Source: Chloroflexota bacterium (GTDB lineage Bacteria > Chloroflexota > Limnocylindria > Limnocylindrales > CSP1-4). Taken from it: DNA of 64,000 bases. The translations under genes were made by a program, and so were the position numbers. The stretch spans positions 4,578 to 68,577 of the forward strand of contig JBJOLT010000032.1 in the NCBI GenBank assembly GCA_046045415.1, written 5' to 3'. Shown here in pieces: positions 1,193 to 13,971 of this stretch (position 1 is its first letter; every line of letters begins with the position of its first letter). The notes beneath the pieces are model-generated. The model was given only the letters and a program-made list of their open reading frames with translations. It searched no databases and was not told the DNA's origin.

Positions 1193-1864
1193 GTGGATAA
1201 TCGGGCCGTGGGCGACGAGCGCGAGGTCGGACTGGTCGAGATGGTGGTCGAGAGCGTCCGCGTCCAGACGAGCTCGAGCCAGCACGTCGTGATCCTCAAG
1301 CAGGTGGGCCGGGAGCGCTACCTCCCGATCTGGATCGGGCCGTGGGAGGCGCAGGCGATCGCCATGCGGCTCCAGGGGATGAGCCCGGAGCGGCCGCTCA
1401 CCCACGACACCTTCTCGACGACGCTCGATGCGCTCGGGGTCGAGATCCGCCGGGTCGTCATCGCCGATCTCGCCGACGAGACCTTCCACGCCCGGATCCA
1501 CCTGACGAGCGGCGATCGCGAGATCGAGATCGACTCCCGGCCCTCCGATGCGCTCGCGCTCGCGGTCCGCGGCGGCGTGCGGATCTTCGCCGCACCGAGG
1601 GTCCTCGCGCGCGCCGGGGTCGTCCCCGAGGCCGACGACGACGACGGGTCGCCCGCGCGGGAGCGGGCCGCCGGCCGGGCGAAGGCGACGCTCTCCGGCG
1701 AGGCGCTCGAGCGGACCGGCGAGCGGGTACCCGACGAGGAGCTCGACCTCTTCCGCGACTTCGTGAACTCGCTCGAGGTGGAGGGGGAGCGTCGCGAGGG
1801 GCCCACCGAACCCGGCGGGAAGGACGCCGCCGGCGGCGGCGGGACGGGCCCCGAGCCCGCCTAG
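1193..1864 (+). CDS. bifunctional nuclease (BFN/DUF151-like) family protein
   Basis: N-terminal core 'QHVVILKQVGRERYLPIWIGPWEAQAIAMRL...DTFSTTLDALGVEIRRVVI...FHARIHLTSGDREIEIDSRPSDALALAV' matches the conserved BFN-domain pattern as I remember it; acidic low-complexity tail. Confidence 0.65.
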   Translation: MDNRAVGDEREVGLVEMVVESVRVQTSSSQHVVILKQVGRERYLPIWIGPWEAQAIAMRLQGMSPERPLTHDTFSTTLDALGVEIRRVVIADLADETFHARIHLTSGDREIEIDSRPSDALALAVRGGVRIFAAPRVLARAGVVPEADDDDGSPARERAAGRAKATLSGEALERTGERVPDEELDLFRDFVNSLEVEGERREGPTEPGGKDAAGGGGTGPEPA

Positions 1865-2706
1865 GCCCCCCGCCCGGAGCCGGGCGCCTCGGTCACCATC
1901 GGCCGGCCGCGGCCGAGCGTCGCGGCCCGGTCGCGCCAGAGCCCGATCCGCAGCCGCCAGAAGTCGCGGACGGCGCGGCGGATCACCGACAGCTTCGCGC
2001 CCGTCGGCGAGCCCGCGGTGCGCGGATGGTGCGGGACGCCGACCTCGACGATCCGGCAGCCGCGCGCGCGGAGCTTGATGAGGAGCTCGGCCGAGAAGAA
2101 GGCCCCGTCCGACTCGACCCGGACCCCCGTGAGCGCATCCCGGCGGAAGACCTTGCACGCGCAGTCGACGTCCGTCGTCCGGAGGCCGAACCAGACGCGG
2201 TTCGCGAGCTTGTAGAGCCGCGCGTAGAGGAGCCGGAGCGGCGGGTCCGCCCGACGGATCCGGTACCCGACGACGACATCCGGCGCGTCCCCGGCGGCGA
2301 GCCGCTCGAGGAGGCGACCGAGGTCCGCGACGCGGAACTGGCGGTCCCCGTCCGTGAAGGCGATCAGCTCGTGGCGCGCCGAGAGGAAGCCGGTCCGGAC
2401 GGCGCCGCCGTAGCCGAGGTTCGTCCCCGTATGGATCGCGCGGACCTCGGGATGGGCGGCGGCGAGCCGGTCGGCGATCGCCGGGGTCGCGTCGCGGGAG
2501 CCGTCGTCGACGATGACGATCTCGAACTCGTCCGCGAGCGGCGGGAGCGCGACGAGCGCCTCGGCGACGAGCGCCTCGAGGTTCGCCTCCTCGTCGTGCG
2601 CGGGGAAGAAGTAGCTGAGCCTGGGGACGCGGGCCGCCGGCGCCGGCACGGCCTCGCTCGGTCGGGGAGATGTCACGCGGCGGACCCTAGCACGCGCGAC
2701 GCCCAC
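1861..2706 (-). CDS. GT2 glycosyltransferase, polyprenol-phosphate mannose synthase-like (Ppm1/DPM1 type); start uncertain (M1, or GTG near 2628)
   Basis: Classical GT-A/GT2 motifs 'FEIVIVDDGSRD', 'NLGYGGAVRTG', 'FTDGD' (DxD), 'VGYRIRR'; no membrane domain, i.e. catalytic-only Ppm type. Confidence 0.75.
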   Translation of the reverse strand: MGVARARVRRVTSPRPSEAVPAPAARVPRLSYFFPAHDEEANLEALVAEALVALPPLADEFEIVIVDDGSRDATPAIADRLAAAHPEVRAIHTGTNLGYGGAVRTGFLSARHELIAFTDGDRQFRVADLGRLLERLAAGDAPDVVVGYRIRRADPPLRLLYARLYKLANRVWFGLRTTDVDCACKVFRRDALTGVRVESDGAFFSAELLIKLRARGCRIVEVGVPHHPRTAGSPTGAKLSVIRRAVRDFWRLRIGLWRDRAATLGRGRPMVTEAPGSGRGA

Positions 2707-2727: not shown

Positions 2728-4104
2728 TCACCAGCCGAGGACCATCCCCCAGGCCACCCCCCACGCCTGGATCGCGATCGAGAGCCCGACGAGGAGCGCG
2801 GCGACGACGAGGCCGCGGCGACCCCACCTCGTCCGGAGCCGCTCGATCCCGAGCGCGACGAGGACGAGGGCGAACGGCGCGAAGTCGTTGCTGAAGCGGT
2901 ACCCGAACTGGACCCACCCCTGACTGAAGTGCGCGAGGTTGACGATCGCGATCGCGACGACGGCCGCGACGGCGCCGAGGACGAGCCGTGGGCTCCCGCC
3001 GATCCTGATCGCCGGGAGGGCGAGGAGCCACGCCGGGCTCGTGAGGATCAGGCTCATCCCGATCGGGTCCGGGACGATCCACGGGCACTCGGGGGAGAAG
3101 AACGCGCGCTCGAGGCCGGGCGCGCAGTCGGGGAGGATCCGGGGGAGCGAGCCGAACATCACCCCGAGGTTCTGCGGGATGTAGCGGAGGTCCTCGATCG
3201 CCCAGTCGGGCCGGTAGCCGAGCTCCGGGTACCCGAACGCCTCGCGCAGGTACTGGTAGTCGTAGGCCGGGTGGAAGAGCTCGCCGGTCGAGACGAGGTT
3301 GTAGGCGAAGAGCCCGCCGATCGGGATCGCCGCGCCGATCCCCGCCGAGAGCGACCGTCCGATGAACGAGCCGCCCCCGCCGACGAGCGCGAGGAACGGA
3401 GCGCCGAGGATCACCGGGAGACGGGCCGTCGCCGCGATCCCGAGGAGGAGCCCGGCGACGAACTGCCCGCGGTGGAGCGGCCCCCGGCCGGGCGGGCCGG
3501 CCTCCGCTGCGAGCGCCCGTTCGATGGCGAGGAGGACGAGTGCCACGGCGATCGTATGGGCGAGGAACCAGGTCGTCCCGATCGCCGACGTGTACCAGAG
3601 GACGGTCCCGAGGCCGAGGAAGACGGTCGCGAGGAGCCGCGACCGGCGGTCGATCGGCAGCCACCCGAGCATCCGGAGCGCGACGCCGACCGCGAGCGCC
3701 CCGGCGATCGTCGCGGCCCATTGGCCGTTCACCGCCTCGCCGAGGAGCGCGACGAACGGGAGGAGCACGAGCGCCGGGAGCGGCGGGAAGGGGATGAGCG
3801 CCTCGCCGGTGGGCCGGCCCGCCGCGTCGTAGAGCGGCATCGCGTCCTGGTAGTAGCCGTTCCCCGGGGCGTCGGGCGAGGACGGGTCGGGAAGGGTGAT
3901 CGCCGCCTTCCCCTCGAGGAACGCGGCCGCCTGGCGGACGAAGTGGTCGTACGGGCTGATCCGCGCCGGGTTGCTGATCGCGTAGACCGCGAGGATCGCG
4001 AGCACGATCGCGAGCCCGGCGGCGACCGGCAGGCGCCGCTCGAGGGCGCCCGGCCCGGGGTCGCCTGCGTCGTCGGTCGGCTCGGGTCGCGCCGCTATAC
4101 TCAT
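2728..4104 (-). CDS. polytopic membrane protein, GT-C-fold (ArnT/PMT_2-like) glycosyltransferase candidate
   Basis: 458 aa with >10 hydrophobic helices, periplasmic loops rich in aromatic/Pro residues (GNGYYQDAMPLYD..., FHPAYDYQYLREAFGYPELGYRPDW); sits between a PPM-synthase-like GT2 and a GT-C fusion; family assignment is by resemblance only. Confidence 0.5.
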   Translation of the reverse strand: MSIAARPEPTDDAGDPGPGALERRLPVAAGLAIVLAILAVYAISNPARISPYDHFVRQAAAFLEGKAAITLPDPSSPDAPGNGYYQDAMPLYDAAGRPTGEALIPFPPLPALVLLPFVALLGEAVNGQWAATIAGALAVGVALRMLGWLPIDRRSRLLATVFLGLGTVLWYTSAIGTTWFLAHTIAVALVLLAIERALAAEAGPPGRGPLHRGQFVAGLLLGIAATARLPVILGAPFLALVGGGGSFIGRSLSAGIGAAIPIGGLFAYNLVSTGELFHPAYDYQYLREAFGYPELGYRPDWAIEDLRYIPQNLGVMFGSLPRILPDCAPGLERAFFSPECPWIVPDPIGMSLILTSPAWLLALPAIRIGGSPRLVLGAVAAVVAIAIVNLAHFSQGWVQFGYRFSNDFAPFALVLVALGIERLRTRWGRRGLVVAALLVGLSIAIQAWGVAWGMVLGW

Positions 4105-4139
4105 CGTCTCCTCAGCGCTCGTTCAGGAGGCCGGTACGC

Positions 4140-7100
4140 GTGTCAGGCCCGGCTGGGGGTGGCGTCGCACCGGGCGAAGCGGCCCCGGACCGGTCGGCCC
4201 CCCGGGACGATCTCGTCGGGATCCTGCCGCTCCTCGCCCTCGGGCTCGCCCTCCGGCTCATCATCCTAGCGGTCGCGCCCGGCTCGGGCTTCGCCGTCGA
4301 CCTCGACGCGTTCCGCTTCTGGGCGGCCGACCTCGCGCGGAACGGACCGTTCGGCTTCTACGAGCGGGGCTTCTTCGCCGACTACACGCCCGGCTACCTC
4401 TATCTCCTCTGGCTCGTCGGCGTCATCGGCGGCCTCCTCCGCGGGCCGGAGGTCGCGGCGCTCGGCGACCTCATCAAGCTCCCGGCGATCCTCGCCGACG
4501 TCGCCGTCGCGTGGCTGATCCGGTCGCTCGCGATCGAGCTCGGCGCGACGAACCGGCGCGCGCTCGCCGCCGCCGCGCTCTTCCTCCTCTTCCCCGTCTC
4601 GTGGTTCGACAGCGCCCTCTGGGGCCAGGTCGACTCGGTCGGCGTCGTCTTCCTGCTGCTCGGGGTCCGGTCGATCTGGCGCGGGAACGCGCCGGCCGCC
4701 GCCGTCTGGGCGACGCTCGCGGCGGTCGTGAAGCCGCAGCTCGGGATCCTCGTCCCGATCCTTGCCGCGTGGGTGATCGGCCGCCTCCTCGCCGAGCGCC
4801 GGACGGCCGCGCTCGCGGTCGCGACCGCGAGGGACGGCTCCGCCCCGGCGCCCGTCGTCTCGAACCCGATCCGGGCGATCGGCTTCCCGATCCTCGCCGC
4901 CGCCGCGACCGCGACCGCCGCGAGCGCCCCGTTCGGTCTCACGCTCCTCGGGCTCTTCGGCCAGGTCGCATCCGCCGCCGCCGGCTACCCGTATGCATCG
5001 GTGAACGCGTACAACCCGTGGGCGCTCGCGACCGTCGACGGCCGGGGTGTCGTCGCCGACGGCACGTGGGTCCGCGATGCCCCCGGCCTCGCGCTCGAGC
5101 CGTACCTCGCGTTCGGCCCCGTCCCGGCCGTGGTCGTCGGCACGGTCCTCCTCCTCATCGCGATCGTGGCGATCGGCGCCGTCGTCGTCCGCCGACCCAC
5201 CCGCGGCACGGTGATCGCCGCGCTCGCCGTCCTCGCGATCGCCTTCTTCGTCGTCCCGACCCGGGTCCACGAGCGCTATCTCTTCCCGTTCATCCCGCTC
5301 GCCCTCATCCTCGCGGCGCGCTCCGACCGCTGGCGCCTCCCGTGGCTCGCCGGCGCGACGACGACGACCCTCGGGATGTACGTCGTCCTCACGACCCTCT
5401 ACCCGGGGAACCCCGGGATCTCGGACTGGCTCGGGATCGGGCCGGCGATCCGGTCGGCGGCGGGCGTGACGACCCTCGCCCTCATCCACGTCGCGCTGCT
5501 CGCCCGAGGGGTGACGCTCCTCCGCCACCGCGCGATCGACGAGCTGGAGGCCACCCCGCCGGAACCGGCGGCCGCCGCCGCGACCGTGGCCGTGGCGGTG
5601 GCCGCGGCCGACGTGACGCCGGCGCCCGTCCGCGCCGCCCCCGCGCCGCCACCGGCCGTCCCGGAGCCGGTCGGAGCCGCCGCGCCGTCCTGGCTCGAGC
5701 GGCCCGACCCGGCGGATCCCGGCCTCCTCGCCGAGGTCCGCCGCCGCCTCCTCGCGAGGCCGCTCCGCGCCGACCGGAGCGCGGCGCTCGTCGGGGAGCC
5801 GGGCGGGCGACTCGACCGCCTCGACCTGTGGATCGTCGTCGTCCTCGTCGTCCTCCTGCTCGCCGGGCGCGCCCACCGGCTCGAGCAGCCGTACCAGATG
5901 CACTTCGACGAGGTCTACCACGCCCGTACCGCGACCGAGTTCCTCCAGCACTGGCGCTACGGCGAGCCCCACCCCATCTACGAGTTCACGCACCCGCACC
6001 TCGCGAAGTACGCGATGGCCGCCGGGCTCGTCATGTTCGGGGGCGACCGGGTGGTCGCGACGAGCTCGCTCGGGGCGCCGGTGGCCGCGGCCGCGATCGA
6101 GGGCCGCTGGGAGGACCCGCGGCTCCCCGCCGCCCGCGCCGGCGACCGGCTCTACCTCGCGACGGGGAGCGACGTCCGCGTCATCGATCTCGCCCGCCGC
6201 TCGGAGGTCGTCCGGCTCCCGATCCCGGGAGCCCGCTCGCTCGCCGTCTCGTCGCTCCGGCACGAGCTCTACGTCGGGACGGACTCGGGGACGATCCTCG
6301 CGCTCGCGACCGCCGCCCTCGACGACGTCCGCCTCGGGGTCCCGCCGCCGGGGGCCGCGGCGATCCGGACCGTCGCCGAGATCGGCGCCCCGGTCGCGCG
6401 GCTCCATGCCGCCGGCGACGGCGCGACGATCCTCGCGGTCGCCGGCGACGAGGTCGTGGCGCTCGCGAGCGACGGCGGGGCGCCACGCGGGCGGCTCGCC
6501 CTCCCGGGGGCGACCGGGTTCGCCGATGCCGGGACGGCCGAGCTCCTCGTCGCTCGCCCGGCCGAGGTCCCCGACCCGGTCGCCGCCGCCCGGGTCCTCA
6601 CCACGCTCCTCGGCGGCTCGGACGGCAGCTACGTCGACCGTCTCGGCACCGGCGCGGGGAGCGTCACGATCGCCCCCGCCCCTCGCGGCGACCTCCGCGG
6701 CGAGCTCGACGCCGCCCTCGGGGACGGCCGTCTCGCCGGGTTCGAGCTCATCACCGTCGGGCGCGTGGCGGTCGGCGCGACGGACGGGATCGCGCTCGTC
6801 GCGACCGCCGACCCGGTGCTGCTGGAGCGGATCGGGACGACGGAGCCGGTGACGGGCCTCGCCGCGACGACGAACCTCGACGCCACCTACCTCTACGCGG
6901 CGACCGGCGAGTCGCTCACCGTCGCCGTCCTCCCGTCGTCGAGCGACACCGAGGGGCTCGCGCGGGTCTCGACGACGGTGCGGATGCCGGGTGCGGTCCG
7001 GGACGTCGCCTGGAACCCGGCGACGCAGATGATCCACGCCCTCGGCCGCGCCCCCGCCGGGTCCGACGGCGAGACCGTCTACGTCGTGGAACCGCACGGG

Positions 7101-9353
7101 AACGCCGTCTTCGCCGACGCGCGGCTCCCCTTCGCCCCGGCGGCGCTCGTCGTCGACGCCGCTCCCCGCTTCCCGAACGACGACCGCCAGGAGCTCCTCG
7201 CCTTCGCCGCGGACGGGAGCGGCGCGTCGGTCGCGGTCGGCGCCCATGCGTTCGCGTGGCGGCTCCCCGGCGTCCTCGCCGGGCTCCTCGGCTCGCTGGC
7301 CCTCTACCTCCTCGCGAGGATCCTCTTCCGGAGGCGTTCCGTCGCCGTGTTCGCCGCCGTCCTCGCCGGCCTCGACGGGATGCTCTTCGTCCAGTCGCGG
7401 ATCGGGATGAACGACGCGTACGTCGGGGCGCTGATCCTCGCCGCGATCGCGGCGTTCGCCGGTCTCTGGACGGGACGCTGGCGATCGCCCGCCGCGTTCT
7501 GGGTCGTCATGCCGGTCGTCGGGATCCTCCTCGGCCTGGCGCTCGCCGCGAAGTGGGTCGCCCTCTACGCGATCGCGGGGCTCGGCATCCTCGTCCTCGC
7601 CCGGTCGGCGCTCGGACGCGTGATCCTCGTCGGCGGGCTCCTCGCCGCCACCGCGGTCCTCGGCCTCGCGGCGATCTCCGTGCCCGCCGGCGGCACGAGC
7701 GGCGGCAACCTCTCGTTCGTCCTCGCGATGATCGCCGTGTCGCTCGTCGCCGTCGCGATCTCCGTCCTCCGGCCGGTCGCCTGGACCCTCGAGGAGCTCC
7801 GGTTCGCCGTCGCCGCCCCGCTCGCGACCGGTGTCGCGATCCTCCTCATCGGGATCCCGCTCGGGGTCGTCGGGCCCGGGCCCTGCGCCGATCCGGCGGC
7901 ACCGTGTCCCCAGCAACTCCTCCTCGAAGGGGCGTTCGGCCTCGTCGTCCTCTCCGGGCTCGCGCTCGGGGCGGCGCGCCTCGCCGCCGGCGTCGGATGG
8001 GGTCCGCTCGCCGACCCGGGCCGCGCGGCGCTCCGCGCCCTCCCTCCGGCCTCGCCGGCCCCGGAGGGCTGGCTCAGGCTCGGGTCCGGCCGCGGCCTCC
8101 CGGCCGTCTGGCTCGTCGTCTCGCTCCTCGCGATCCCCGTCGCGGTCTACGTCGCCTCGTACCTCCCGTGGGTCGCGCTCGGGAACCGGCTCGTCGAGTC
8201 GTGGCCGCCGGGGAACGCCGGTCAGACGCTCGCCGACCTGACCGCCTCGATGTACCGGTATCACGACGACCTCAGGGCGGCGCACGCCGCCTCGTCCCCC
8301 TGGTGGGCGTGGCCCTTCGACCTGAAGCCGGTCTGGTTCTATCAGGGGGGCTTCGAGAGCGCCACGGCCGGGGCGATCTACGACGCCGGCAACCTCGTCG
8401 TCTGGTGGCTCGCGATCCCCGCCCTCGGGTTCGCCGCCTGGGCCGCCTATCGGCGCCGGAGCCACGCCCTCGCGCTCGTCGTCGTCGCGTTCCTCGCGCT
8501 CTGGCTCCCGTGGGCGCGGATCGACCGGGCGACGTTCCAGTACCACTACTACACGGCGCTCCCCTTCGCGATCCTCGCGCTCGCGTACCTCGCCGCGGAG
8601 CTCTGGCACGGCCCACCCCGCGGCGTCTGGCTCCTCGCGCGGGTCTCGGCGGGGCTCGCGATCGTCGGCCCGCTCCTCCTCTGGCTCCTCCGCCTGCCGC
8701 TCTGCGCGCTCATCCGGGTCGAGGGCGCCAACCCCGGCTCGGAGGCGTGCGCCCTCCTTCCGCCGGGCGAGATCCTCGTCACCGCGCGGACCGCCGGCCT
8801 CCTCCTCGTCGCCCTCGTCGGGGGGCTCATGCTCGTCCGCGGGATCCTCTCCCTCGGGCGGCCCGGCGGACGCAGCACGGCCGTCGTCATCGGCGCGGTC
8901 GTCACGTCCGCGGGTCTCGTCGCCGCCGGCCGGCTCCTCGACGAGACCCCGCTCCTCCGGATCACCGCCTTCCCGCCCGAGGCGATCGCGCTCGTCGCCA
9001 TCGTCCCGGTCGGCTCCCTCGCCTGGCACGTCGCGACGGCGAGCGACCCGCGCCGCTTCGTCGCCGGGATCCTCGTCGCGGCCGCGGGCTGGTTCGTCCT
9101 CTGGTACCCGAACCTCAGCGGCCTCCCCCTCCCGAGCGCGCTCTTCAACGCGTACCAGGGGCTCCTGCCGACGTACCTCTACCCGTTCCAGTTCCCGGTG
9201 AACCTCGACCCCCCGGGCGAGGGGCCGCCGCTCGCGAGTCTCGAGTTCGCGATCCTCGCGCTCGCGATCGCCGGCACGGCGGTCGCCGTCGCGTGGAGCG
9301 CGTCGTCGTGGCGGCTGCCCGGGCGCGGCGGGGAGGCGGGCCCCCCGGCCTAG
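4140..9353 (+). CDS. 1737-aa polytopic fusion: N-terminal GT-C glycosyltransferase module + PMT-type (GT39-like) protein-O-mannosyltransferase module with a large repeat insertion
   Basis: Single open frame with coding GC3 bias throughout. aa 1-470 multi-TM with 'GPFGFYERGFFADYTPGYLYLLW'. An Ala/Pro linker follows, then a TM helix and the PMT loop-1 signature 'HFDEVYHARTATEFLQHWRYGEPHPIYEFTHPHLAKY' (nt ~5899). aa ~640-1050 hold blade-like repeats (LYLATGSDVRVIDL, LYVGTDSGTILAL, ILAVAGDEVVAL, LYAATGESLTVAVL, VYVVEPHGNAVFAD). The PMT TM core follows ('LFVQSRIGMNDAYV', 'YRYHDDLRAAHAASSPWWAWPFDLKPVWFYQ'). Confidence 0.7.
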   Translation: MSGPAGGGVAPGEAAPDRSAPRDDLVGILPLLALGLALRLIILAVAPGSGFAVDLDAFRFWAADLARNGPFGFYERGFFADYTPGYLYLLWLVGVIGGLLRGPEVAALGDLIKLPAILADVAVAWLIRSLAIELGATNRRALAAAALFLLFPVSWFDSALWGQVDSVGVVFLLLGVRSIWRGNAPAAAVWATLAAVVKPQLGILVPILAAWVIGRLLAERRTAALAVATARDGSAPAPVVSNPIRAIGFPILAAAATATAASAPFGLTLLGLFGQVASAAAGYPYASVNAYNPWALATVDGRGVVADGTWVRDAPGLALEPYLAFGPVPAVVVGTVLLLIAIVAIGAVVVRRPTRGTVIAALAVLAIAFFVVPTRVHERYLFPFIPLALILAARSDRWRLPWLAGATTTTLGMYVVLTTLYPGNPGISDWLGIGPAIRSAAGVTTLALIHVALLARGVTLLRHRAIDELEATPPEPAAAAATVAVAVAAADVTPAPVRAAPAPPPAVPEPVGAAAPSWLERPDPADPGLLAEVRRRLLARPLRADRSAALVGEPGGRLDRLDLWIVVVLVVLLLAGRAHRLEQPYQMHFDEVYHARTATEFLQHWRYGEPHPIYEFTHPHLAKYAMAAGLVMFGGDRVVATSSLGAPVAAAAIEGRWEDPRLPAARAGDRLYLATGSDVRVIDLARRSEVVRLPIPGARSLAVSSLRHELYVGTDSGTILALATAALDDVRLGVPPPGAAAIRTVAEIGAPVARLHAAGDGATILAVAGDEVVALASDGGAPRGRLALPGATGFADAGTAELLVARPAEVPDPVAAARVLTTLLGGSDGSYVDRLGTGAGSVTIAPAPRGDLRGELDAALGDGRLAGFELITVGRVAVGATDGIALVATADPVLLERIGTTEPVTGLAATTNLDATYLYAATGESLTVAVLPSSSDTEGLARVSTTVRMPGAVRDVAWNPATQMIHALGRAPAGSDGETVYVVEPHGNAVFADARLPFAPAALVVDAAPRFPNDDRQELLAFAADGSGASVAVGAHAFAWRLPGVLAGLLGSLALYLLARILFRRRSVAVFAAVLAGLDGMLFVQSRIGMNDAYVGALILAAIAAFAGLWTGRWRSPAAFWVVMPVVGILLGLALAAKWVALYAIAGLGILVLARSALGRVILVGGLLAATAVLGLAAISVPAGGTSGGNLSFVLAMIAVSLVAVAISVLRPVAWTLEELRFAVAAPLATGVAILLIGIPLGVVGPGPCADPAAPCPQQLLLEGAFGLVVLSGLALGAARLAAGVGWGPLADPGRAALRALPPASPAPEGWLRLGSGRGLPAVWLVVSLLAIPVAVYVASYLPWVALGNRLVESWPPGNAGQTLADLTASMYRYHDDLRAAHAASSPWWAWPFDLKPVWFYQGGFESATAGAIYDAGNLVVWWLAIPALGFAAWAAYRRRSHALALVVVAFLALWLPWARIDRATFQYHYYTALPFAILALAYLAAELWHGPPRGVWLLARVSAGLAIVGPLLLWLLRLPLCALIRVEGANPGSEACALLPPGEILVTARTAGLLLVALVGGLMLVRGILSLGRPGGRSTAVVIGAVVTSAGLVAAGRLLDETPLLRITAFPPEAIALVAIVPVGSLAWHVATASDPRRFVAGILVAAAGWFVLWYPNLSGLPLPSALFNAYQGLLPTYLYPFQFPVNLDPPGEGPPLASLEFAILALAIAGTAVAVAWSASSWRLPGRGGEAGPPA

Positions 9354-10546
9354 TCGCGGCCCCCCGGCCCCCGGTGCTCGCGGGGCGGCGCGGGCGGGAT
9401 CGGCGCCGTGTGATGCTCGGGCATCGCCCCGCTCGCCGCGAGCCGGCGGATCACGAACCCGTAGTAGGCGTCGACCCGCTCGGTCACCTGCTCCCAGCTG
9501 AACGCCTCGGCACGGGCGAGCCCGCTCGCACCCATCCGCTCCCGGAGCGCTGGGTCGCCGAGGAGGCTCATCGTCGCCGCCGCGATCGCCTTCGCGTCGC
9601 CCGGCGGTACGAGGAGCCCCTGCTCGCCCCGCTTCACGACCCCCTTGTAGCCGTGGATGTCCGACGCGACGATCGGCGTCCCCGCCGCCATCGCCTCGAG
9701 GAGGACGATCCCGAACGACTCGCGTCCCGTGGCGGGCGAGACGTAGACGTCGGCGGTCTTGAAGAGCGCCGCCTTCTCGCGGTCGCTCACCCGGCCGAGG
9801 AACTCGACGCCGCCGAGTCGCCGGGTCGCGACGTAGCGCCGCGCCTCGCGCTCCTGGGGTCCCGAGCCGACGACGAGCAGCCGGCAGTCGCAGTCCGCCT
9901 TCCGCATGATCCGGTAGGCCTTCAGGAGGTGGAGCAGCCCCTTCCGCGGCTCGTGACGCCCGACGAAGAGGACGTTCCGCCGTCCGTCCTGCCAGCGCGC
10001 GACCGGGACCGCGTCCCGATAGCGAGCGACGTCGACCCCGTTCGGGATCACCCGGTAGTCGCCCGGGAAGAAGCGATCGATGAAGTGGCGCGCGGCGGCG
10101 GAGACGGCGATCCGCCCGTGGAGCCGCCGCCCGTAGCCGCCGAGCACGCGGCTCCCGAACTCGTACGACGGCGAGAACCCGGCGTACGCGTGGAAGGTGG
10201 CGACGTTCACGCTCCTCGACTCCCTGAGGAGCACGAGCGAGAGGAAGGGGACGAAGGGCTCGTGGAAGTGAAGGAGGTCGAAGCGCTCTTCGTCGAGCAT
10301 CCGCCGGACCTGTGCGACGTAGCGGGGCGAGAAGGTGATCGTCCCCATCGAGCCGTTCGCCGGGACGCTGAACCCCTTCCCGAGCCGGATGACGTCGCCG
10401 TCCGTCGAGCGCTGGAACCCGTGGCTCGCGGAGATGATCCGGACATCGTGGCCGCGGAGGCGGAGATTCCGGTAGAGGTGCTCGACGTGCTCGTTCACCC
10501 CGCCGGGCGTCGGGTAGATGTACGGCGTGACGAGCCCGATCTTCAT
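9350..10546 (-). CDS. pimA: GT4 glycosyltransferase, PimA-like phosphatidylinositol alpha-mannosyltransferase (start at internal MKIGLV; the 580-aa ORF is over-extended)
   Basis: 'MKIGLVTPYIYPTPGGVNEHVEHL', 'VGRHEPRKG', 'VSPATGRESFGIVLLEAMAAGTPIVASDIHGY' are GT4/PimA-family motifs; PIM-type operon context; ATG overlaps the stop of the upstream PHP gene. Confidence 0.75.
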   Translation of the reverse strand: MKIGLVTPYIYPTPGGVNEHVEHLYRNLRLRGHDVRIISASHGFQRSTDGDVIRLGKGFSVPANGSMGTITFSPRYVAQVRRMLDEERFDLLHFHEPFVPFLSLVLLRESRSVNVATFHAYAGFSPSYEFGSRVLGGYGRRLHGRIAVSAAARHFIDRFFPGDYRVIPNGVDVARYRDAVPVARWQDGRRNVLFVGRHEPRKGLLHLLKAYRIMRKADCDCRLLVVGSGPQEREARRYVATRRLGGVEFLGRVSDREKAALFKTADVYVSPATGRESFGIVLLEAMAAGTPIVASDIHGYKGVVKRGEQGLLVPPGDAKAIAAATMSLLGDPALRERMGASGLARAEAFSWEQVTERVDAYYGFVIRRLAASGAMPEHHTAPIPPAPPREHRGPGGRD

Positions 10547-11376
10547 CGTGCGCCCCCGCCGGCCCCGCCACCGTCGCGGGTGAGGGCCTCGAGGTCGAGG
10601 CGGGCGGGTCGCCGCCGTCCCCCGGGGTAGCCGAGGTCGCGCCCCGTGCCGTCCCGGCGGATCGCGCCGCGGATCCCGTCGCGCGCGTCCCGGCCGTACT
10701 TGCGGAGCTGGCGGCCGAAGGTCCCGATCTGGCCCGCCCCATGGAAGGCGCCGTGCGCGTGGGTACGCCGCTCGAGGATCGCCCGGCGAAGCTCGTCGGC
10801 GCTCCTGCCCGGGAAGGTCGTCCAGCAGCTCCCGATCGCCTCGAGCGTGTGCGCGTCGCTGTTCCCGATCGCCGCGAGCCCGTGCTCCGCGGCGAACCGC
10901 ACGACCCTGCCGTGGAGCGGCCGCCCGAGCGCCGTCGGGTTGAAGGTCTCCAGTCCGTCCGGGTGGACGCGAGGATCCGGATCCCGGAGGAGTCGCTCCA
11001 GCGCCGGGGCCTGAGCGCAGAGCGGGTACGGGACGAGGGGGTGGGCCGGGATCGCGAGGCCACCCTGATCGTGGACCGCGGCGATCGTCCATCGGAGGGA
11101 GCGGAGCGACGGGATCCGCTCCTCGACGAAGAGCGCGAGGAGGTGGCCCCCGAGGGTCGTCACCTCCTCCCCGACGACCACCTCGACCCGGTGGCGCCGC
11201 TCCCTCGCGATCTCGCGCGCGGCGAGCGCCGCATCGATCCGCTCGTGGTCGGTGATCGCGACGACGTCGAGGACCCCCGCCCGCTCGATGTGCTCGAGGA
11301 TCTCGACGACCCCGGCGGTCCCGTCGGAAGCGAGCGTGTGGATGTGGAGGTCGGCGCGGCCGAGCCGGTCGGTCAT
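10543..11376 (-). CDS. PHP-domain metal-dependent phosphoesterase
   Basis: 'ADLHIHTLASDGT...VAITDHE' His-rich PHP signature; start at MTDRLGRADLHIHT overlapping (ATGA) the stop of the acyltransferase gene. Confidence 0.7.
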   Translation of the reverse strand: MTDRLGRADLHIHTLASDGTAGVVEILEHIERAGVLDVVAITDHERIDAALAAREIARERRHRVEVVVGEEVTTLGGHLLALFVEERIPSLRSLRWTIAAVHDQGGLAIPAHPLVPYPLCAQAPALERLLRDPDPRVHPDGLETFNPTALGRPLHGRVVRFAAEHGLAAIGNSDAHTLEAIGSCWTTFPGRSADELRRAILERRTHAHGAFHGAGQIGTFGRQLRKYGRDARDGIRGAIRRDGTGRDLGYPGGRRRPARLDLEALTRDGGGAGGGAR

Positions 11377-12317
11377 CGGTCCGGCACCGCGAGGTCGCGC
11401 CAGATCGGGAAGAAGAGCGACCACCACTGCTCCGGCGCCGTCGCGATCAGCCGCTCGTAGCCGGCCGCCTGGGCGGCAAGGAAGGCGACGACCCGCTCCC
11501 GCAGCTTCCCGGCCGCCGGCGGCTCGACGCGGATCAGCTCGCCCTCGTAGCGGCCGCCCCCGGTCCGGCGGGCGCCCATGACGTACGCGGGCGCCCCGCT
11601 CTCGATCGCGGCGAGCGCCCCGCCGATCGGGAGCGGCGCCGGATGGCCGAAGAACGGGACCTCGACACCGCCGCCGGTCACGTCGCGGTCGGCGACGAGG
11701 CCGGCGATCTCGCCGCGTCCGAGCGCCTCCTCCAGTTCCCGCTTCGCCAGCGCGATCGGGACGATCCGGAGGCCGACGAAGCCGCGCGTCCGCTCGAACC
11801 AGCGCTGGAGGACCGGGTCGGCGAGCGTCTCCATCGGGCAGACGGCCGGACGGCCGAGCCGGCTCGAGAGGTAGATCGCGGGGATCTCGAGCCCGCCGTA
11901 GTGGATCCCCACGAGGATGAGCGCGCCGCCCCGCTCGAACGGCGAGTCACCGGGCTCCGTCGCGAACTCGACGAGCCGCCTCACCCGCTCCGGGGTGAAC
12001 GACGGGGCGCGGAGGACTTCGAGGTAGTAGCGGGCATGGTGCCGGGACGCGGAGCGAAGGAGCGCCTCGAGCGCACGCGGGTCGCTCGCCGCGCGCCGTG
12101 CCGCGTCCGTGCCGCGACCGGTCGCCGCGAGCGACTCGCAGACGCGGCGGAGGTTCCGACGCCCCTGCTCCGCCCGGCGCGGGTCGGCCCGGAGCCAGAG
12201 GTCCCCCGCGAGCTCGGCGAGCGCGACGAGCGGGCGCTCGGGGAGGCGGCAGGCGAGCGCCGACGCCGCGTCGATCGCGAGGCCGCGGAGGCGCTGGCCG
12301 GGTGTGAGGCGGGTCAT
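11373..12317 (-). CDS. lipid acyltransferase of the HtrB/LpxL-LPLAT family (PatA-like PIM acyltransferase), copy 2
   Basis: 314 aa from MTRLTPGQ; conserved 'LILVGIHYGGLEIP', 'PFFGHPAPLPIGGALAAIESGAPAYV', 'EQWWSLFFPIW' blocks typical of lauroyl/myristoyl-type acyltransferases; ATGA overlap with upstream gene. Confidence 0.7.
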   Translation of the reverse strand: MTRLTPGQRLRGLAIDAASALACRLPERPLVALAELAGDLWLRADPRRAEQGRRNLRRVCESLAATGRGTDAARRAASDPRALEALLRSASRHHARYYLEVLRAPSFTPERVRRLVEFATEPGDSPFERGGALILVGIHYGGLEIPAIYLSSRLGRPAVCPMETLADPVLQRWFERTRGFVGLRIVPIALAKRELEEALGRGEIAGLVADRDVTGGGVEVPFFGHPAPLPIGGALAAIESGAPAYVMGARRTGGGRYEGELIRVEPPAAGKLRERVVAFLAAQAAGYERLIATAPEQWWSLFFPIWRDLAVPDR

Positions 12318-13342
12318 CGACCGGGCGCCTGCCCGGCGAGGGTGGCGTCGGCCTCCGGAGCGGCCCGCTCGCCGCTCCCCGGCGGGCGGGCGAGCGCCGC
12401 CTCGAGCCGGTCGCGCTCCGCCGGGTCGCTCGGCCAGATCGGCTTGAAGCTGTACCACTGCTCGGGGGCGGCGGCGATCGTCCGCTCGAGCGCGTCGGCG
12501 ATCCGCTGGGTCGCCGACGCGAGATCGGCCGGGTCGGTCGAGGCGCACTCGATCGGCTCGTCGTGGGTGACGTAGAAGGTGCCGTCCGGGTGCCGGCGCG
12601 AGGTGAACGGCAGGATCGTCGCGCCGGTCTTCGCCGCGAGGTAGGCGGGGCCGGCCGGCAGCATCGTCGGTGCGCCGAAGATCCGGACCGGGATCCCGTC
12701 CGGCTTGTAGCCCCAGTCGACGAGGAGGCCGAGGATCTCGCCGCGCTTCAGGACGGCGAAGACGTCGCGGAGGTTCCGCCACGGGATCAGCTCCACTCCC
12801 CAGGAGCGGCGGACCGCCCGCAGGTGCTCGAACAGCTCGGGGAAGGTCGAGTCGTCGGCGACGACGGAGATCGGCCACCCGTGGCGCGCGATCCCGGCGG
12901 CGATCGCCTCGTTGTTCCCGACGTGCTGGCCGACGAGGACCAGGCCCTTCGAGCGCTTCCGGATCGCCTCGAACGTCTCGAGCCCGGCGAGATCCACCTG
13001 CGCGGCGGCGCGCTCGGGCGGCATGCTCGTCTGGCGGAGGAGCTCGACGATGTAGCGCGCATAGTTCCGGTAGGCCGCGAGCGCGAGCCGCCGGACCCGC
13101 GGGTCGTCCACCGTCGTCCCGAGGACGTGGGCGAAGTTCGCATCGACGAAGCGCCGCTTCTCCGGCCAGAGGAGATAGCCGGCCCTCGTGACGACCCCGC
13201 CGACGGTCCATGCCGGCCGCGGCGGGATCCTCGCGGCGAGCCACTCCGCCGTCCGGTAGAGCCGGAGCGCGGCCCGCTCCACGACCCGCGGTGCGCCGCG
13301 GCGCCGCCGATGCGGCGCCTCGCGCCCGCCGCTCGCCGTCAC
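12314..13342 (-). CDS. lipid acyltransferase of the HtrB/LpxL-LPLAT family (PatA-like), copy 1; deduced GTG start overlapping pgsA-like stop
   Basis: Same family blocks as copy 2 ('LVLVGQHVGNNEAIAAG', 'IFGAPTMLPAGPAYLAAKTGATILPF', 'EQWYSFKPIW'); the upstream part of the 497-aa ORF is Arg-rich shadow sequence. Confidence 0.6.
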   Translation of the reverse strand: MTASGGREAPHRRRRGAPRVVERAALRLYRTAEWLAARIPPRPAWTVGGVVTRAGYLLWPEKRRFVDANFAHVLGTTVDDPRVRRLALAAYRNYARYIVELLRQTSMPPERAAAQVDLAGLETFEAIRKRSKGLVLVGQHVGNNEAIAAGIARHGWPISVVADDSTFPELFEHLRAVRRSWGVELIPWRNLRDVFAVLKRGEILGLLVDWGYKPDGIPVRIFGAPTMLPAGPAYLAAKTGATILPFTSRRHPDGTFYVTHDEPIECASTDPADLASATQRIADALERTIAAAPEQWYSFKPIWPSDPAERDRLEAALARPPGSGERAAPEADATLAGQAPGR

Positions 13343-13971
13343 CGGCCCGGTGCCCCGAGCGAGGCGATCGTCCGCTGCACGGCGGTGATCGTCGCGAGGA
13401 GGGCGATCGCCCCGAGCGAGACCTCGAGCGCCGGGGCCGGATCGTCGGCGAGCCCGGCCGCGACGAGGCCCGCGAAGAGGATCGCGATCCTGATCTCCCG
13501 CGGGGCGAGGCCGACGTTCGCGATGCCGCTCCCGGTGGAGAGGCCGAGCCCCTCGGCCCGGGCGCGCGTGTAGCTGACCATGAAGGCGGCCGCCATCGCC
13601 GCGCCCGCGAGGAGGACGGCACGGTCCTCGCCGGCGGCGAGCGCCCCCGCGAGGATCCCGACGAAGACGAGCGCCTCGCCGGCCCGGTCGCTCACCGAGT
13701 CGAGGAACGCGCCCGCGGGCCCCGCCTTCCCGGTCGCACGGGCGAGCGCACCGTCGAAGAGGTCGAAGACGGCCCCGCCGAGGACGAGGCACCCGGCCGC
13801 GACCCACGCGCCGGATGCGGCGACGACGGCGGCGACGATCGCGATCGCGAGCCCGATGACGGTCAGGGCGTTCGGCGTGAGGCCGAGCCTCCCGAGCGCG
13901 AGCGCCACCGGCGTCCCGAGCTCGCGGACGCGGGCCCGCTGCTCCGGGGTGAGGAGGCTTCCCCGGTTCAT
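13339..13971 (-). CDS. CDP-alcohol phosphatidyltransferase (phosphatidylinositol(-phosphate) synthase PgsA1-like)
   Basis: 210 aa from MNRGSLLTPEQ; hallmark 'GGAVFDLFDGALAR ... GAFLDSVSDR' (D-G-x2-A-R...G-x3-D-x3-D) with 5-6 TM helices; start overlaps (ATGA) the ArsR gene stop. Confidence 0.75.
   Translation of the reverse strand: MNRGSLLTPEQRARVRELGTPVALALGRLGLTPNALTVIGLAIAIVAAVVAASGAWVAAGCLVLGGAVFDLFDGALARATGKAGPAGAFLDSVSDRAGEALVFVGILAGALAAGEDRAVLLAGAAMAAAFMVSYTRARAEGLGLSTGSGIANVGLAPREIRIAILFAGLVAAGLADDPAPALEVSLGAIALLATITAVQRTIASLGAPGR

What the first reader, a model, noticed from the sequence alone, without database searches (positions are those of the whole stretch)
4140..9353. 1737-aa single polypeptide fusing a GT-C module to a PMT-like O-mannosyltransferase with a ~400-aa repeat insertion
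One uninterrupted frame runs 4140-9353 with uniform GC3 bias. It encodes a first multi-TM GT-C-like module (aa 1-470), an Ala/Pro-rich linker, and then a protein-O-mannosyltransferase-type module. The PMT loop-1 signature reads HFDEVYHARTA...EF. The late-TM motifs read LFVQSRIGMNDAYV and YRYHDD...SPWWAWPF...VWFYQ. About 400 residues of blade-like repeats sit between the DE-motif region and the TM core. Canonical PMTs instead carry MIR beta-trefoil domains in a later loop. Such repeats could provide substrate or carrier recognition for a processive or bifunctional glycosylation machine. Only the PMT-module motifs are familiar to me. The fusion and the repeat insertion are what I have not seen described.
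Basis: partly seen in the sequence, partly recalled or inferred. Interest (0 to 1): 0.8.

Follow-up and report, generated by a model that had tools for sequence, protein, structure and literature searches.

The report
Double membrane glycosyltransferase with built-in propeller
This is a real 1737-residue membrane protein, found across an uncultured group of Chloroflexota, that joins two lipid-sugar-dependent glycosyltransferases and carries a seven-bladed propeller next to the second active site; it sits in a gene cluster resembling the mycobacterial pathway for inositol-lipid mannosides, so it probably helps build the cell envelope.

Summary
Window 4140-9353 (+) is one coding frame (GC3 about 0.96 in every 300-nt bin) with AGGAGG 9 nt before the GTG start. 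It is not an artefact. More than 120 full-length homologues exist, and at least 568 GTDB species genomes encode a relative. In 81 of 87 fetched loci one ORF spans both modules. Nearly all are Chloroflexota / Ca. Limnocylindria MAGs.

Anatomy:
- aa 20-470 is a GT-C fold closest to ALG6, PIG-M, PimE and ALG3, with no significant Pfam match.
- aa 471-553 is a disordered Ala/Pro linker.
- aa 638-1032 is a confidently predicted seven-bladed WD40/YncE-like propeller inserted in extracytoplasmic loop 1, between the DE-motif helices and TM2. There is no MIR domain.

Candidate catalytic residues of both modules are invariant. One sub-lineage has the two modules as separate, ATGA-overlapping genes.

Synteny is conserved: a polyprenyl-phosphate-sugar-synthase-like GT2 and further putative GT-C genes lie upstream. 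Homologues of PimA, PHP, two PatA and PgsA1 lie downstream.

Best reading: a two-site enzyme using polyprenyl-phosphate sugar, acting on a PI-glycolipid and on proteins. Function is inferred only. It is a new variant of known kinds.

The parts
4125..4130 (+). Shine-Dalgarno-like AGGAGG, 9 nt before the GTG start
   Evidence: Read directly from the sequence.
4140..9353 (+). Whole gene: 1737 aa, more than 30 predicted membrane helices, stop TAG at 9351-9353
   Evidence: uniform GC3; identical NCBI protein; hydropathy.
4197..5549 (+). N-module (aa 20-470): GT-C fold of the ALG6/PIG-M/PimE/ALG3 type. Invariant residues are D54 (nt 4299-4301), D81-Y-T-P-G85, W155/D157/W161/Q163, K198-P-Q200 and P373-T-R-V-H377-x-R-Y380
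   Evidence: Model pLDDT 85.9, pTM 0.82. Foldseek: ALG6 E 2e-5, PIG-M TM-score 0.66, PimE E 3.3e-4, ALG3 TM-score 0.67. Invariant columns. Only a sub-threshold Pfam Alg6_Alg8 hit.
5550..5798 (+). Ala/Pro-rich linker (aa 471-553), predicted disordered and inferred to be cytoplasmic
   Evidence: pLDDT about 50. Only 35% identity and variable length among homologues. Replaced by a (TPSGP)n repeat in L085 and almost absent in the split form L088.
5799..6050 (+). C-module TM1 plus the two loop-1 helices (aa 554-637), with the DE motif D590-E591 (nt 5907-5912) and the HPHLAKY helix
   Evidence: Secondary structure. Invariant H588-F-D-E-V-Y-H594 and T617-H-P-H620. Aligns to yeast Pmt4 'vvFDEVHFGKFA'.
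6051..7235 (+). Seven-bladed beta-propeller (aa 638-1032) inserted in extracytoplasmic loop 1, ending just before W1040-R1041 at the start of TM2
6498..6785 (+). Alpha/beta sub-domain within the propeller (about aa 787-882), resembling an N-terminal segment of a PBP-like protein
   Evidence: The family profile matches 4ovd_A residues 72-166 at E 6.7e-7. Helices at slice positions 260-308.
7236..8729 (+). PMT-type membrane core (aa 1033-1530): R1087..N1091-D1092, the H1382..S-P-W-W-A-W-P..K-P-V-W-F-Y-Q loop with a beta-hairpin, and R1463-x2-F1466-x-Y-H1469. No MIR domain
8730..9350 (+). C-terminal extension (aa 1531-1737): about five more membrane helices and a loop with invariant C1522/C1537 just upstream
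1861..2706 (-). Neighbour: soluble GT2 of the polyprenyl-phosphate-sugar-synthase class (candidate donor synthase)
   Evidence: Pfam Glycos_transf_2. Best solved relatives are ArnC 8.6e-12, Pyrococcus Dol-P-Man synthase 1.9e-8 and GtrB 8.8e-7. No TM segment. Present in 66 of 86 related loci.
2728..4104 (-). Neighbour, divergently transcribed: 458-aa protein with about 9-10 TM segments and a GT-C-like first loop (putative further glycosyltransferase)
   Evidence: Weak NCBIfam hit to LA_3751/LA_3752 putative GT. Hydropathy. Present in 67 of 86 loci. No solved relative.
9350..10540 (-). Neighbour, convergent: PimA-like GT4
   Evidence: Best solved match is PimA at E 1.5e-66 over the full length; the next family scores 5e-24. 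Present in 75 of 86 loci.
10543..11427 (-). Neighbour: PHP-family phosphoesterase
   Evidence: Pfam PHP_C and PHP. Present in 69 of 86 loci.
11373..13264 (-). Neighbours: two tandem PatA-like acyltransferases (11373-12290 and 12314-13264)
   Evidence: Pfam Lip_A_acyltrans. Best NCBIfam hit is PIM acyltransferase. PatA 2e-19 against LpxL 1.5e-5.
13339..13962 (-). Neighbour: phosphatidylinositol-phosphate-synthase-like CDP-alcohol transferase
   Evidence: Best NCBIfam hits are archaetidylinositol-P synthase and PIP synthase. M. tuberculosis PgsA1 at 1.2e-21.

Best explanation
The gene encodes one very large polytopic membrane protein with two separate GT-C glycosyltransferase active sites, both facing the outside of the cytoplasmic membrane.

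Shown here:
- The N-module is a GT-C of the ALG6/PIG-M/PimE/ALG3 structural type. Characterised members of that type take a sugar from a polyprenyl-phosphate carrier and add it to a lipid-anchored glycan.
- The C-module is a PMT-type GT-C. It has an invariant Asp-Glu pair in loop 1 and the PMT-specific C-terminal module.
- A seven-bladed propeller is spliced into loop 1, directly after the helices that carry the catalytic acidic residues.
- The two modules are joined by a disordered tether. At least one sub-lineage encodes them as two translationally coupled genes, so they work together but need not be covalently linked.

Inferred:
- Both sites draw on the same polyprenyl-phosphate sugar, most likely mannose, made by the neighbouring GT2.
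- The N-module extends a phosphatidylinositol-anchored glycolipid that is started in the cytoplasm by the adjacent PgsA1/PimA/PatA-like enzymes. This would parallel the role of PimE in mycobacteria.
- The PMT-like module O-glycosylates Ser/Thr of exported envelope proteins. The propeller would hold or select the acceptor at the mouth of the active site, a role played by other add-on domains in related enzymes (MIR, TPR, or the WW-like hairpin).
For: - Single coding frame and start site.
- Conservation of the fused architecture: more than 120 full-length homologues; at least 568 species genomes with the best 80 full-length; 81 of 87 loci with one spanning ORF.
- N-module fold. Invariant D54 lies at the start of the first loop-1 helix, with invariant K198 and H377. 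This resembles the PimE functional residues D58, K195 and H321/H322 (PMC12041525).
- Propeller.
- Genuine split form: ATGA overlap, seven distinct sequences on at least 13 contigs, same synteny.
- Conserved neighbourhood. Neighbours match PimA, PatA and PgsA1 and polyprenyl-phosphate glycosyltransferases.
Against: - There is no experimental evidence for any activity, donor or acceptor, and no cultured organism carries the gene.
- The N-module has no significant sequence match to any Pfam family or any solved protein. Its residue correspondence to PimE rests on similar position and spacing, not on an alignment or a superposition.
- The GT2's sugar is unidentified. Its best relatives include ArnC and GtrB as well as Dol-P-Man synthase.
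- The target scores far below the NCBIfam cut-off for actinobacterial Pmt (46.7 against 800).
- The PI-lipid genes are on the opposite strand and converge on the target, so the link is synteny, not an operon.
- This window lacks the inositol-1-phosphate synthase gene that relatives carry in the cluster.
- The position of the propeller relative to D590/E591 was deduced from chain connectivity only, because model coordinates could not be inspected.
Confidence: 0.55

Rival explanations
1. Both modules act on glycolipid or polysaccharide rather than on protein. In this reading the PMT-like module, with its propeller as a carbohydrate or lipoglycan clamp, polymerises or branches a PI-anchored lipomannan-like polymer primed by the N-module. 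The protein would be a lipoglycan synthase and not a protein O-mannosyltransferase.
For: The locus is packed with PI-glycolipid genes and further putative GT-C genes. This resembles the PIM/LM/LAM logic of mycobacteria, where several GT-C enzymes extend one lipid-anchored glycan (PMC12041525). The target is far below the actinobacterial Pmt equivalog cut-off. Fusion of two enzymes usually joins consecutive steps of one pathway.
Against: The membrane core is closest to true protein O-mannosyltransferases and to no other GT-C family. The PMT-specific C-terminal module, the loop-4 hairpin region and the Rx2F motif, which form the peptide groove in M. tuberculosis PMT (PMC12331936), are conserved.
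Confidence: 0.25
2. Only the PMT-like module is catalytic. The N-module would be a non-enzymatic GT-C-fold scaffold, as PIG-U is in the GPI transamidase. It would bind a lipid or serve as the obligatory dimer partner that fungal PMTs find in a second PMT subunit.
For: PIG-U is among the best structural matches (E 6.2e-5). Stand-alone paralogues of the N-module carry precomputed Pfam PIG-U hits. Fungal PMTs work as dimers (PDB 6p25 and 9e61 are dimers).
Against: An invariant Asp (D54) sits where GT-C enzymes carry their catalytic base. Invariant K198 and H377 fit a phosphate-binding pair as in PimE (PMC12041525). That degree of conservation of polar residues is not expected for a pure scaffold.
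Confidence: 0.12
3. The long ORF is an assembly or annotation artefact: two neighbouring genes merged by a sequencing error, or a chance ORF in GC-rich DNA.
For: At 75% GC, ORFs of more than 2000 codons occur by chance in other frames of the same region. A genuine two-gene form exists in one lineage. Several database entries are split by frameshifts or gaps.
Against: GC3 of about 0.96 is in phase along the whole ORF. The same continuous ORF occurs in 81 of 87 loci from independent assemblies at about 50% protein identity. The apparent splits other than L088 trace to frameshifts, a run of N, or contig ends.
Confidence: 0.02

Closest known systems
Protein O-mannosyltransferases (PMT/POMT, CAZy GT39): yeast Pmt1/Pmt2/Pmt4 and M. 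tuberculosis PMT (Rv1002c)
   Different: A 395-residue seven-bladed propeller is inserted in loop 1. The C-module has about 18-20 membrane helices, against 11 in the fungal enzymes as I recall from the published structures, and it has an extra C-terminal helical bundle. It is fused to, or translationally coupled with, a second GT-C. It scores far below the actinobacterial Pmt equivalog threshold. Activity is untested.
PimE (GT87), ALG6 (GT57), PIG-M (GPI mannosyltransferase I), ALG3: GT-C enzymes that add a sugar from a polyprenyl/dolichyl-phosphate carrier to a lipid-anchored glycan
   Same: The N-module has the same overall fold (TM-score normalised to target 0.56-0.67). It has an invariant Asp at the start of the first loop-1 helix and invariant Lys and His residues at positions similar to PimE D58/K195/H322 (PMC12041525). 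Its genomic neighbours make the kind of PI-glycolipid that PimE and PIG-M act on.
   Different: There is no significant sequence similarity to any of them. The N-module belongs to a small family, mostly from Chloroflexota, without a Pfam model of its own. It is fused to a PMT-like enzyme.
GT-C enzymes with add-on acceptor-binding domains: TMTC1-4 and TMEM260 (TPR), eukaryotic PMT (MIR), AftD/Emb (carbohydrate-binding modules)
   Same: The principle is the same: a soluble extracytoplasmic domain is attached to a GT-C core, presumably to select the acceptor (PMC10214176 and PMC7801869 for TMEM260 and TMTC; PMC12331936 for MIR).
   Different: Here the add-on is a beta-propeller. It is spliced into loop 1 next to the catalytic acidic residues, not appended at the C-terminus or inserted in loop 4. 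I found no description of such an arrangement.
Mycobacterial early PIM pathway (pgsA1-patA-pimA gene cluster)
   Same: The flanking minus-strand genes have PgsA1, PatA and PimA as their best characterised relatives and lie in the same relative order. The mycobacterial operon order is from my own knowledge.
   Different: There are two PatA-like copies, an inserted PHP phosphoesterase and, in most relatives, inositol-1-phosphate synthase. All score below the NCBIfam equivalog cut-offs. The host is Chloroflexota, not Actinomycetota.

Membership tests
PMT / GT39 protein O-mannosyltransferase (C-module) | Matches to the Pfam PMT (PF02366) and PMT_4TMC (PF16192) models above their gathering scores | tested here: met
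   34.1 bits against 22.7, and 49.8 bits against 32.4.
PMT / GT39 protein O-mannosyltransferase (C-module) | Membrane core with the PMT fold | tested here: met
PMT / GT39 protein O-mannosyltransferase (C-module) | Acidic catalytic motif (Asp-Glu) in extracytoplasmic loop 1 | tested here: met
   D590-E591 are invariant in 51 sequences and align to yeast FDEVH.
PMT / GT39 protein O-mannosyltransferase (C-module) | Second essential Asp and the Rx2[Y/F] motif of loop 5 (MtPMT D176, R441/Y444; PMC12331936) | tested here: inconclusive
   R1087/D1092 align with yeast TETRLILLD within a significant match. R1463-x2-F1466 aligns with fungal GRQLFLHHY only in a sub-significant but collinear segment. All of these residues are invariant. 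No direct alignment to MtPMT was possible.
PMT / GT39 protein O-mannosyltransferase (C-module) | MIR beta-trefoil domain in loop 4 (eukaryotic PMTs only) | tested here: not met
   No MIR hit was found. The corresponding stretch is made of membrane helices. Bacterial PMTs also lack MIR (PMC12331936), so this excludes only the eukaryotic subtype.
PMT / GT39 protein O-mannosyltransferase (C-module) | Equivalog-level identity with characterised actinobacterial Pmt (NCBIfam NF058602) | tested here: not met
   46.7 bits against a cut-off of 800.
PMT / GT39 protein O-mannosyltransferase (C-module) | Transfers mannose from polyprenyl-phosphate-mannose to Ser/Thr of proteins | not testable with these tools
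   Requires biochemistry or genetics.
GT-C enzymes of the ALG6/PimE/PIG-M type (N-module) | GT-C fold with the conserved N-terminal helix module | tested here: met
   Foldseek: ALG6 E 2e-5, PIG-M, PimE and ALG3, with TM-score normalised to target 0.56-0.67. Model pLDDT is 85.9.
GT-C enzymes of the ALG6/PimE/PIG-M type (N-module) | Catalytic Asp at the tip of the first juxtamembrane helix of loop 1 | tested here: inconclusive
   Invariant D54 lies just after TM1 (helix 21-45), at the start of helix 52-68. Its equivalence to PimE D58 was not checked by superposition.
GT-C enzymes of the ALG6/PimE/PIG-M type (N-module) | Sequence membership in GT57 (Alg6_Alg8), GT87 (PF09594) or PIG-U/PIG-M Pfam families | tested here: not met
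   Only Alg6_Alg8 matched, at 16.5-19.3 bits against a cut-off of 25. There were no PDB sequence hits at E up to 10. Some relatives carry precomputed PIG-U, Alg6_Alg8 or GT87 hits.
Seven-bladed WD40/YVTN-type beta-propeller (insert) | Propeller fold with seven four-stranded blades | tested here: met
Seven-bladed WD40/YVTN-type beta-propeller (insert) | Recognisable WD40 or other repeat signature at sequence level | tested here: not met
   No Pfam family at E up to 0.1 for the insert alone. The only sequence signal is a profile hit to WDR18 at E 3.5e-4.
Mycobacterial-type PIM pathway (genomic context) | Adjacent PI-phosphate synthase, PimA-type mannosyltransferase and PatA-type acyltransferase | tested here: met
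   The best solved relatives are PgsA1, PimA and PatA by wide margins. All score below the NCBIfam equivalog cut-offs. The arrangement is conserved in 51-75 of 86 loci, and most absences are due to contig ends.

The most novel reading that the evidence does not exclude
The fusion physically couples a module related to the GPI-pathway proteins PIG-M and PIG-U, which handles a phosphatidylinositol-anchored glycan, to a protein-directed PMT-like module with a propeller. The whole sits inside a PI-glycolipid gene cluster. In this reading it would be part of a bacterial system that joins or co-modifies PI-anchored glycans and surface proteins, a prokaryotic counterpart of GPI-type chemistry. This would go beyond two independent glycosyltransferase activities. 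A milder version is that Limnocylindria make mycobacterial-style PIM/lipomannan lipoglycans outside the Actinomycetota, with this protein as the key extracytoplasmic enzyme. I would give that milder version about 0.35.
Probability: 0.05. Interest if true: 0.9.

Novelty: new variant of a known kind. Interest (0 to 1): 0.55.

Why it matters
GT-C enzymes build N-glycans, GPI anchors, O-mannosyl glycans and the mycobacterial cell envelope. How they select acceptors is a current structural question. This family offers three natural experiments:
- Two different GT-C enzymes in one chain, with a lineage where they are split.
- A PMT whose acceptor-side loop carries a whole propeller in place of the MIR, WW-like or TPR solutions seen elsewhere.
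- An apparently complete PI-mannoside-type gene set in an abundant, uncultured class of freshwater and soil Chloroflexota.

If the inferred functions hold, PIM-like envelope chemistry extends beyond Actinomycetota. The family would also give structural biologists a compact target for seeing donor sharing and acceptor capture. If they do not hold, it is still an undescribed domain architecture present in hundreds of species.

Tried and rejected
- **AlphaFold-database search.** A fold search against afdb50, meant to find unfused propeller-PMTs with names, was not possible because the library was unavailable.
- **Candidate unfused forms.** Most were artefacts. P0123/L083 and L087 are frameshift-laden assemblies. 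P0140/L086, P0377 and P0355 are cut by contig ends, and their cluster mates are 1819-1831 aa. P0143/L085 is interrupted by a 100-N scaffold gap inside a (TPSGP)n linker repeat. Only L088 (a split form, well replicated) and the singleton P0172/L084 are genuine.
- **L084.** I tried to classify this contig as phage or mobile element. One PHROG hit of unknown function among eight ORFs was not enough.
- **N-module sequence kinship.** No hits against solved proteins at E up to 10, and none in the N-module part of the family profile at E up to 0.01.
- **Labelling correction.** I first labelled the N-module 'GT-C_B'. I withdrew this after reading that PimE and ALG6 are placed in GT-C_A (PMC12041525).
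- **Regulatory signals.** Promoter and terminator scans around the gene found nothing.
- **Literature.** Searches for the fusion, for a propeller in PMT loop 1, for tandem GT-C proteins, and for PIMs in Chloroflexi found no description. The library does not cover most subscription journals, so absence is not proof.
Full report

Yes. The window is about 75% G+C, so long open frames occur by chance. The same region holds ORFs of 2039 and 2265 codons in other frames. The frame 4140-9353 (+) is different. G+C at the third codon position is 0.91-1.00 in every 300-nt bin along its whole length, and the phase changes only outside it.

AGGAGG lies 9 nt before the GTG start. The N-terminus aligns with that of homologues. 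An identical 1737-residue protein is already deposited as a hypothetical protein of a Chloroflexota MAG.

**2. Is the fusion genuine?**

Yes.
- A search of 5.8 billion proteins returned 1071 relatives. The 120 best are 1689-1875 residues long and mostly cover 97-100% of the query at 47-58% identity.
- A scan of one genome per GTDB species found at least 568 loci. The best 80 match query residues about 1-1726. Nearly all come from Chloroflexota / Ca. Limnocylindrales MAGs. A few short contigs are binned elsewhere, probably wrongly.
- In 81 of 87 fetched loci a single ORF of at least 1650 codons spans both modules.

I examined every apparent exception. Two are frameshift-laden assemblies (L083, L087). 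Two are contig-end truncations (L003, L086). One is a 100-N scaffold gap inside a (TPSGP)n linker repeat (L085).

One exception is real. In L088 a 494-residue N-module gene and a 1262-residue C-module gene overlap by ATGA, and the codon phase switches exactly at the junction. The 1262-residue form is represented by seven distinct sequences on at least 13 contigs. In a rough neighbour-joining tree it is nested inside the fused clade, which suggests a secondary fission (no support values).

A single unfused propeller-PMT (P0172, L084) also exists, in an unrelated context. It is a singleton.

**3. Anatomy**

*N-module (aa 20-470).* The AlphaFold2 model has pLDDT 85.9 and pTM 0.82. It is an all-helical GT-C fold. 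Its best solved matches are yeast ALG6, PIG-U, GPI mannosyltransferase I (PIG-M), PimE and ALG3.

It has no significant Pfam or NCBIfam match. The only hit is Alg6_Alg8 at 16.5-19.3 bits against a cut-off of 25. It has no sequence match to any solved protein.

Invariant polar residues across 51 sequences include D54, at the start of the first loop-1 helix, together with D81, D157, Q163, K198 and H377. This pattern resembles the PimE functional residues D58, D160/Q163, K195 and H321/H322 (PMC12041525). I could not verify the correspondence by alignment or superposition.

*Linker (aa 471-553).* It is Ala/Pro-rich, with pLDDT about 50, 35% identity among homologues and variable length. Positive charges flank both sides. 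The next module must start from the cytoplasm, so I infer that the linker is cytoplasmic.

Several residues are invariant:
- The loop-1 motif H-F-D590-E591-V-Y-H aligns with yeast FDEVH.
- W1040-R1041 lies at the start of TM2.
- R1087..D1092 aligns to yeast TETRLILLD.
- The SPWWAWP..KPVWFYQ segment has a predicted beta-hairpin.
- R1463-x2-F1466-x-Y-H aligns, weakly but collinearly, with fungal GRQLFLHHY.

These are the residue classes shown to be essential in M. tuberculosis PMT: D74, D176, R441/Y444 and the loop-4 C-terminal hairpin (PMC12331936). There is no MIR domain, as in bacterial PMTs. About five further helices extend the C-terminus.

*Insert (aa 638-1032).* Yeast Pmt4 has about 45 residues between the aligned loop-1 helix and TM2, where this family has about 434 profile positions. 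The insert is predicted at pLDDT mostly above 90 as about 29 strands. It matches seven-bladed propellers:
- G-beta, with TM-score normalised to target 0.65-0.72;
- a prokaryotic WD40 domain, 0.76;

No repeat family is detectable at sequence level. The insert is present in all 50 aligned homologues with about 1% gaps and 42% identity.

It lies between loop-1 helices and TM2, and loop 1 of PMTs is luminal/extracytoplasmic. The propeller must therefore sit outside the membrane, next to the catalytic loop. That is an inference from connectivity, because I could not inspect coordinates.

The loop-1-plus-propeller segment finds only 534 representatives among 1.84 billion cluster representatives, many of them fragments. 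The arrangement is essentially confined to this family.

**4. Neighbourhood**

Genes were called by codon-position G+C.

Upstream, on the opposite strand:
- A soluble GT2. Its best relatives are polyprenyl-phosphate glycosyltransferases: ArnC, archaeal Dol-P-Man synthase and GtrB.
- A 458-residue protein with about 9-10 membrane segments and a GT-C-like first loop.
- Most relatives carry a further TMEM260_N/PMT_2-type GT-C here.

Downstream, converging on the target and sharing a CTAG at the two stop codons:
- A GT4 whose best solved relative is PimA (E 1.5e-66, full length; the next family scores 5e-24).
- A PHP phosphoesterase.
- Two acyltransferases closest to PatA.
- A CDP-alcohol transferase closest to mycobacterial PI-phosphate synthase PgsA1.
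- Relatives also carry inositol-1-phosphate synthase here, which this window lacks.

The order is conserved across about 80 species-level genomes at about 50% protein identity.

**5. Most likely mechanism**

The protein has two outward-facing GT-C active sites. Each retains its candidate catalytic residues. The two are joined by a dispensable tether; the split form shows that it is dispensable.

I infer the following:
- Both sites use the same polyprenyl-phosphate sugar, supplied by the neighbouring GT2. The sugar is most likely mannose, given the PMT and PimA kinship, but this is not established.
- The N-module extends a PI-anchored glycolipid begun by the PgsA1/PimA/PatA-like enzymes, as PimE does in mycobacteria.
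- The PMT-like module O-glycosylates exported proteins, with the propeller selecting or holding the acceptor.

The main rival is that both modules act on a lipoglycan, making the protein a lipomannan-type synthase. A second rival is that the N-module is a non-catalytic PIG-U-like scaffold or dimer partner. The artefact explanation is refuted.

**6. Comparison with known systems, and novelty**

Each part belongs to a known kind: GT39-like PMT, ALG6/PimE-like GT-C, and WD40/YncE-like propeller. The combination does not.

I found no description of a tandem GT-C polypeptide, of a propeller in PMT loop 1, or of a PIM-type cluster in Chloroflexota. The searchable library omits most subscription journals. 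Databases label the protein only as 'phospholipid carrier-dependent glycosyltransferase' or 'hypothetical'.

I rate it a new variant of a known kind, with moderate to good interest. The architecture is solidly established and class-wide. Its function is entirely inferred, and the organism is uncultured.

Noticed in passing
window 10543-11427 (-): A PHP-family phosphoesterase sits between the PimA-like and PatA-like genes in 69 of 86 related loci. Its position suggests it could be the phosphatase that converts PI-phosphate to PI in this pathway. That is inference from position only.
   Followed up: partly
window 6498-6785 (+), aa ~787-882 of the target: An alpha/beta sub-domain is inserted within the propeller. 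With the family profile it matches residues 72-166 of the PBP-like protein 4ovd_A ('peptidoglycan glycosyltransferase') at E 6.7e-7. Its meaning is unknown; it hints at a link to cell-wall proteins.
   Followed up: no
window 9350-13962 (-), compared with L001, L002, L085, L088: This window lacks the inositol-1-phosphate synthase gene that relatives carry between the second acyltransferase and the PI-phosphate synthase. It also lacks the TMEM260_N/PMT_2-type GT-C that most relatives carry next to the GT2.
   Followed up: partly
L088 5520-10789: A replicated two-gene form of the system: N-module and C-module genes overlap by ATGA, with almost no linker. It is nested within the fused clade in a rough NJ tree.
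   Followed up: yes
L085 6854-8353 and 9780-9895: This divergent lineage has an extra stand-alone N-module paralogue upstream of the fused gene. Its linker is a (TPSGP)n repeat that broke the scaffold (100 N). The stand-alone paralogue family is small (86 hits) and carries precomputed Pfam hits to PIG-U, Alg6_Alg8 and GT87.
   Followed up: partly
L084 7762-10947: A singleton, genuinely unfused propeller-PMT (P0172, 1061 aa, about 40% identity). It lies on a 20-kb contig full of small ORFs without family matches and with no N-module. Whether the contig is a mobile element or phage could not be decided.
   Followed up: partly
window 9350-9353 and 4104-4140: The giant gene and the PimA-like gene converge and share a CTAG that holds both stop codons. 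The giant gene and the divergent 458-aa gene are only 35 nt apart, each with its own Shine-Dalgarno-like sequence. No sigma-70-like promoter or intrinsic terminator was found.
   Followed up: partly
window 212-1183 (+): A conserved upstream ORF with no family match is present in 60 of 86 related loci. The corresponding gene in relatives is 727-761 aa, so the window copy may be shorter or mis-started. The relatives' loci lie close to dnaA/dnaN/dciA.
   Followed up: no
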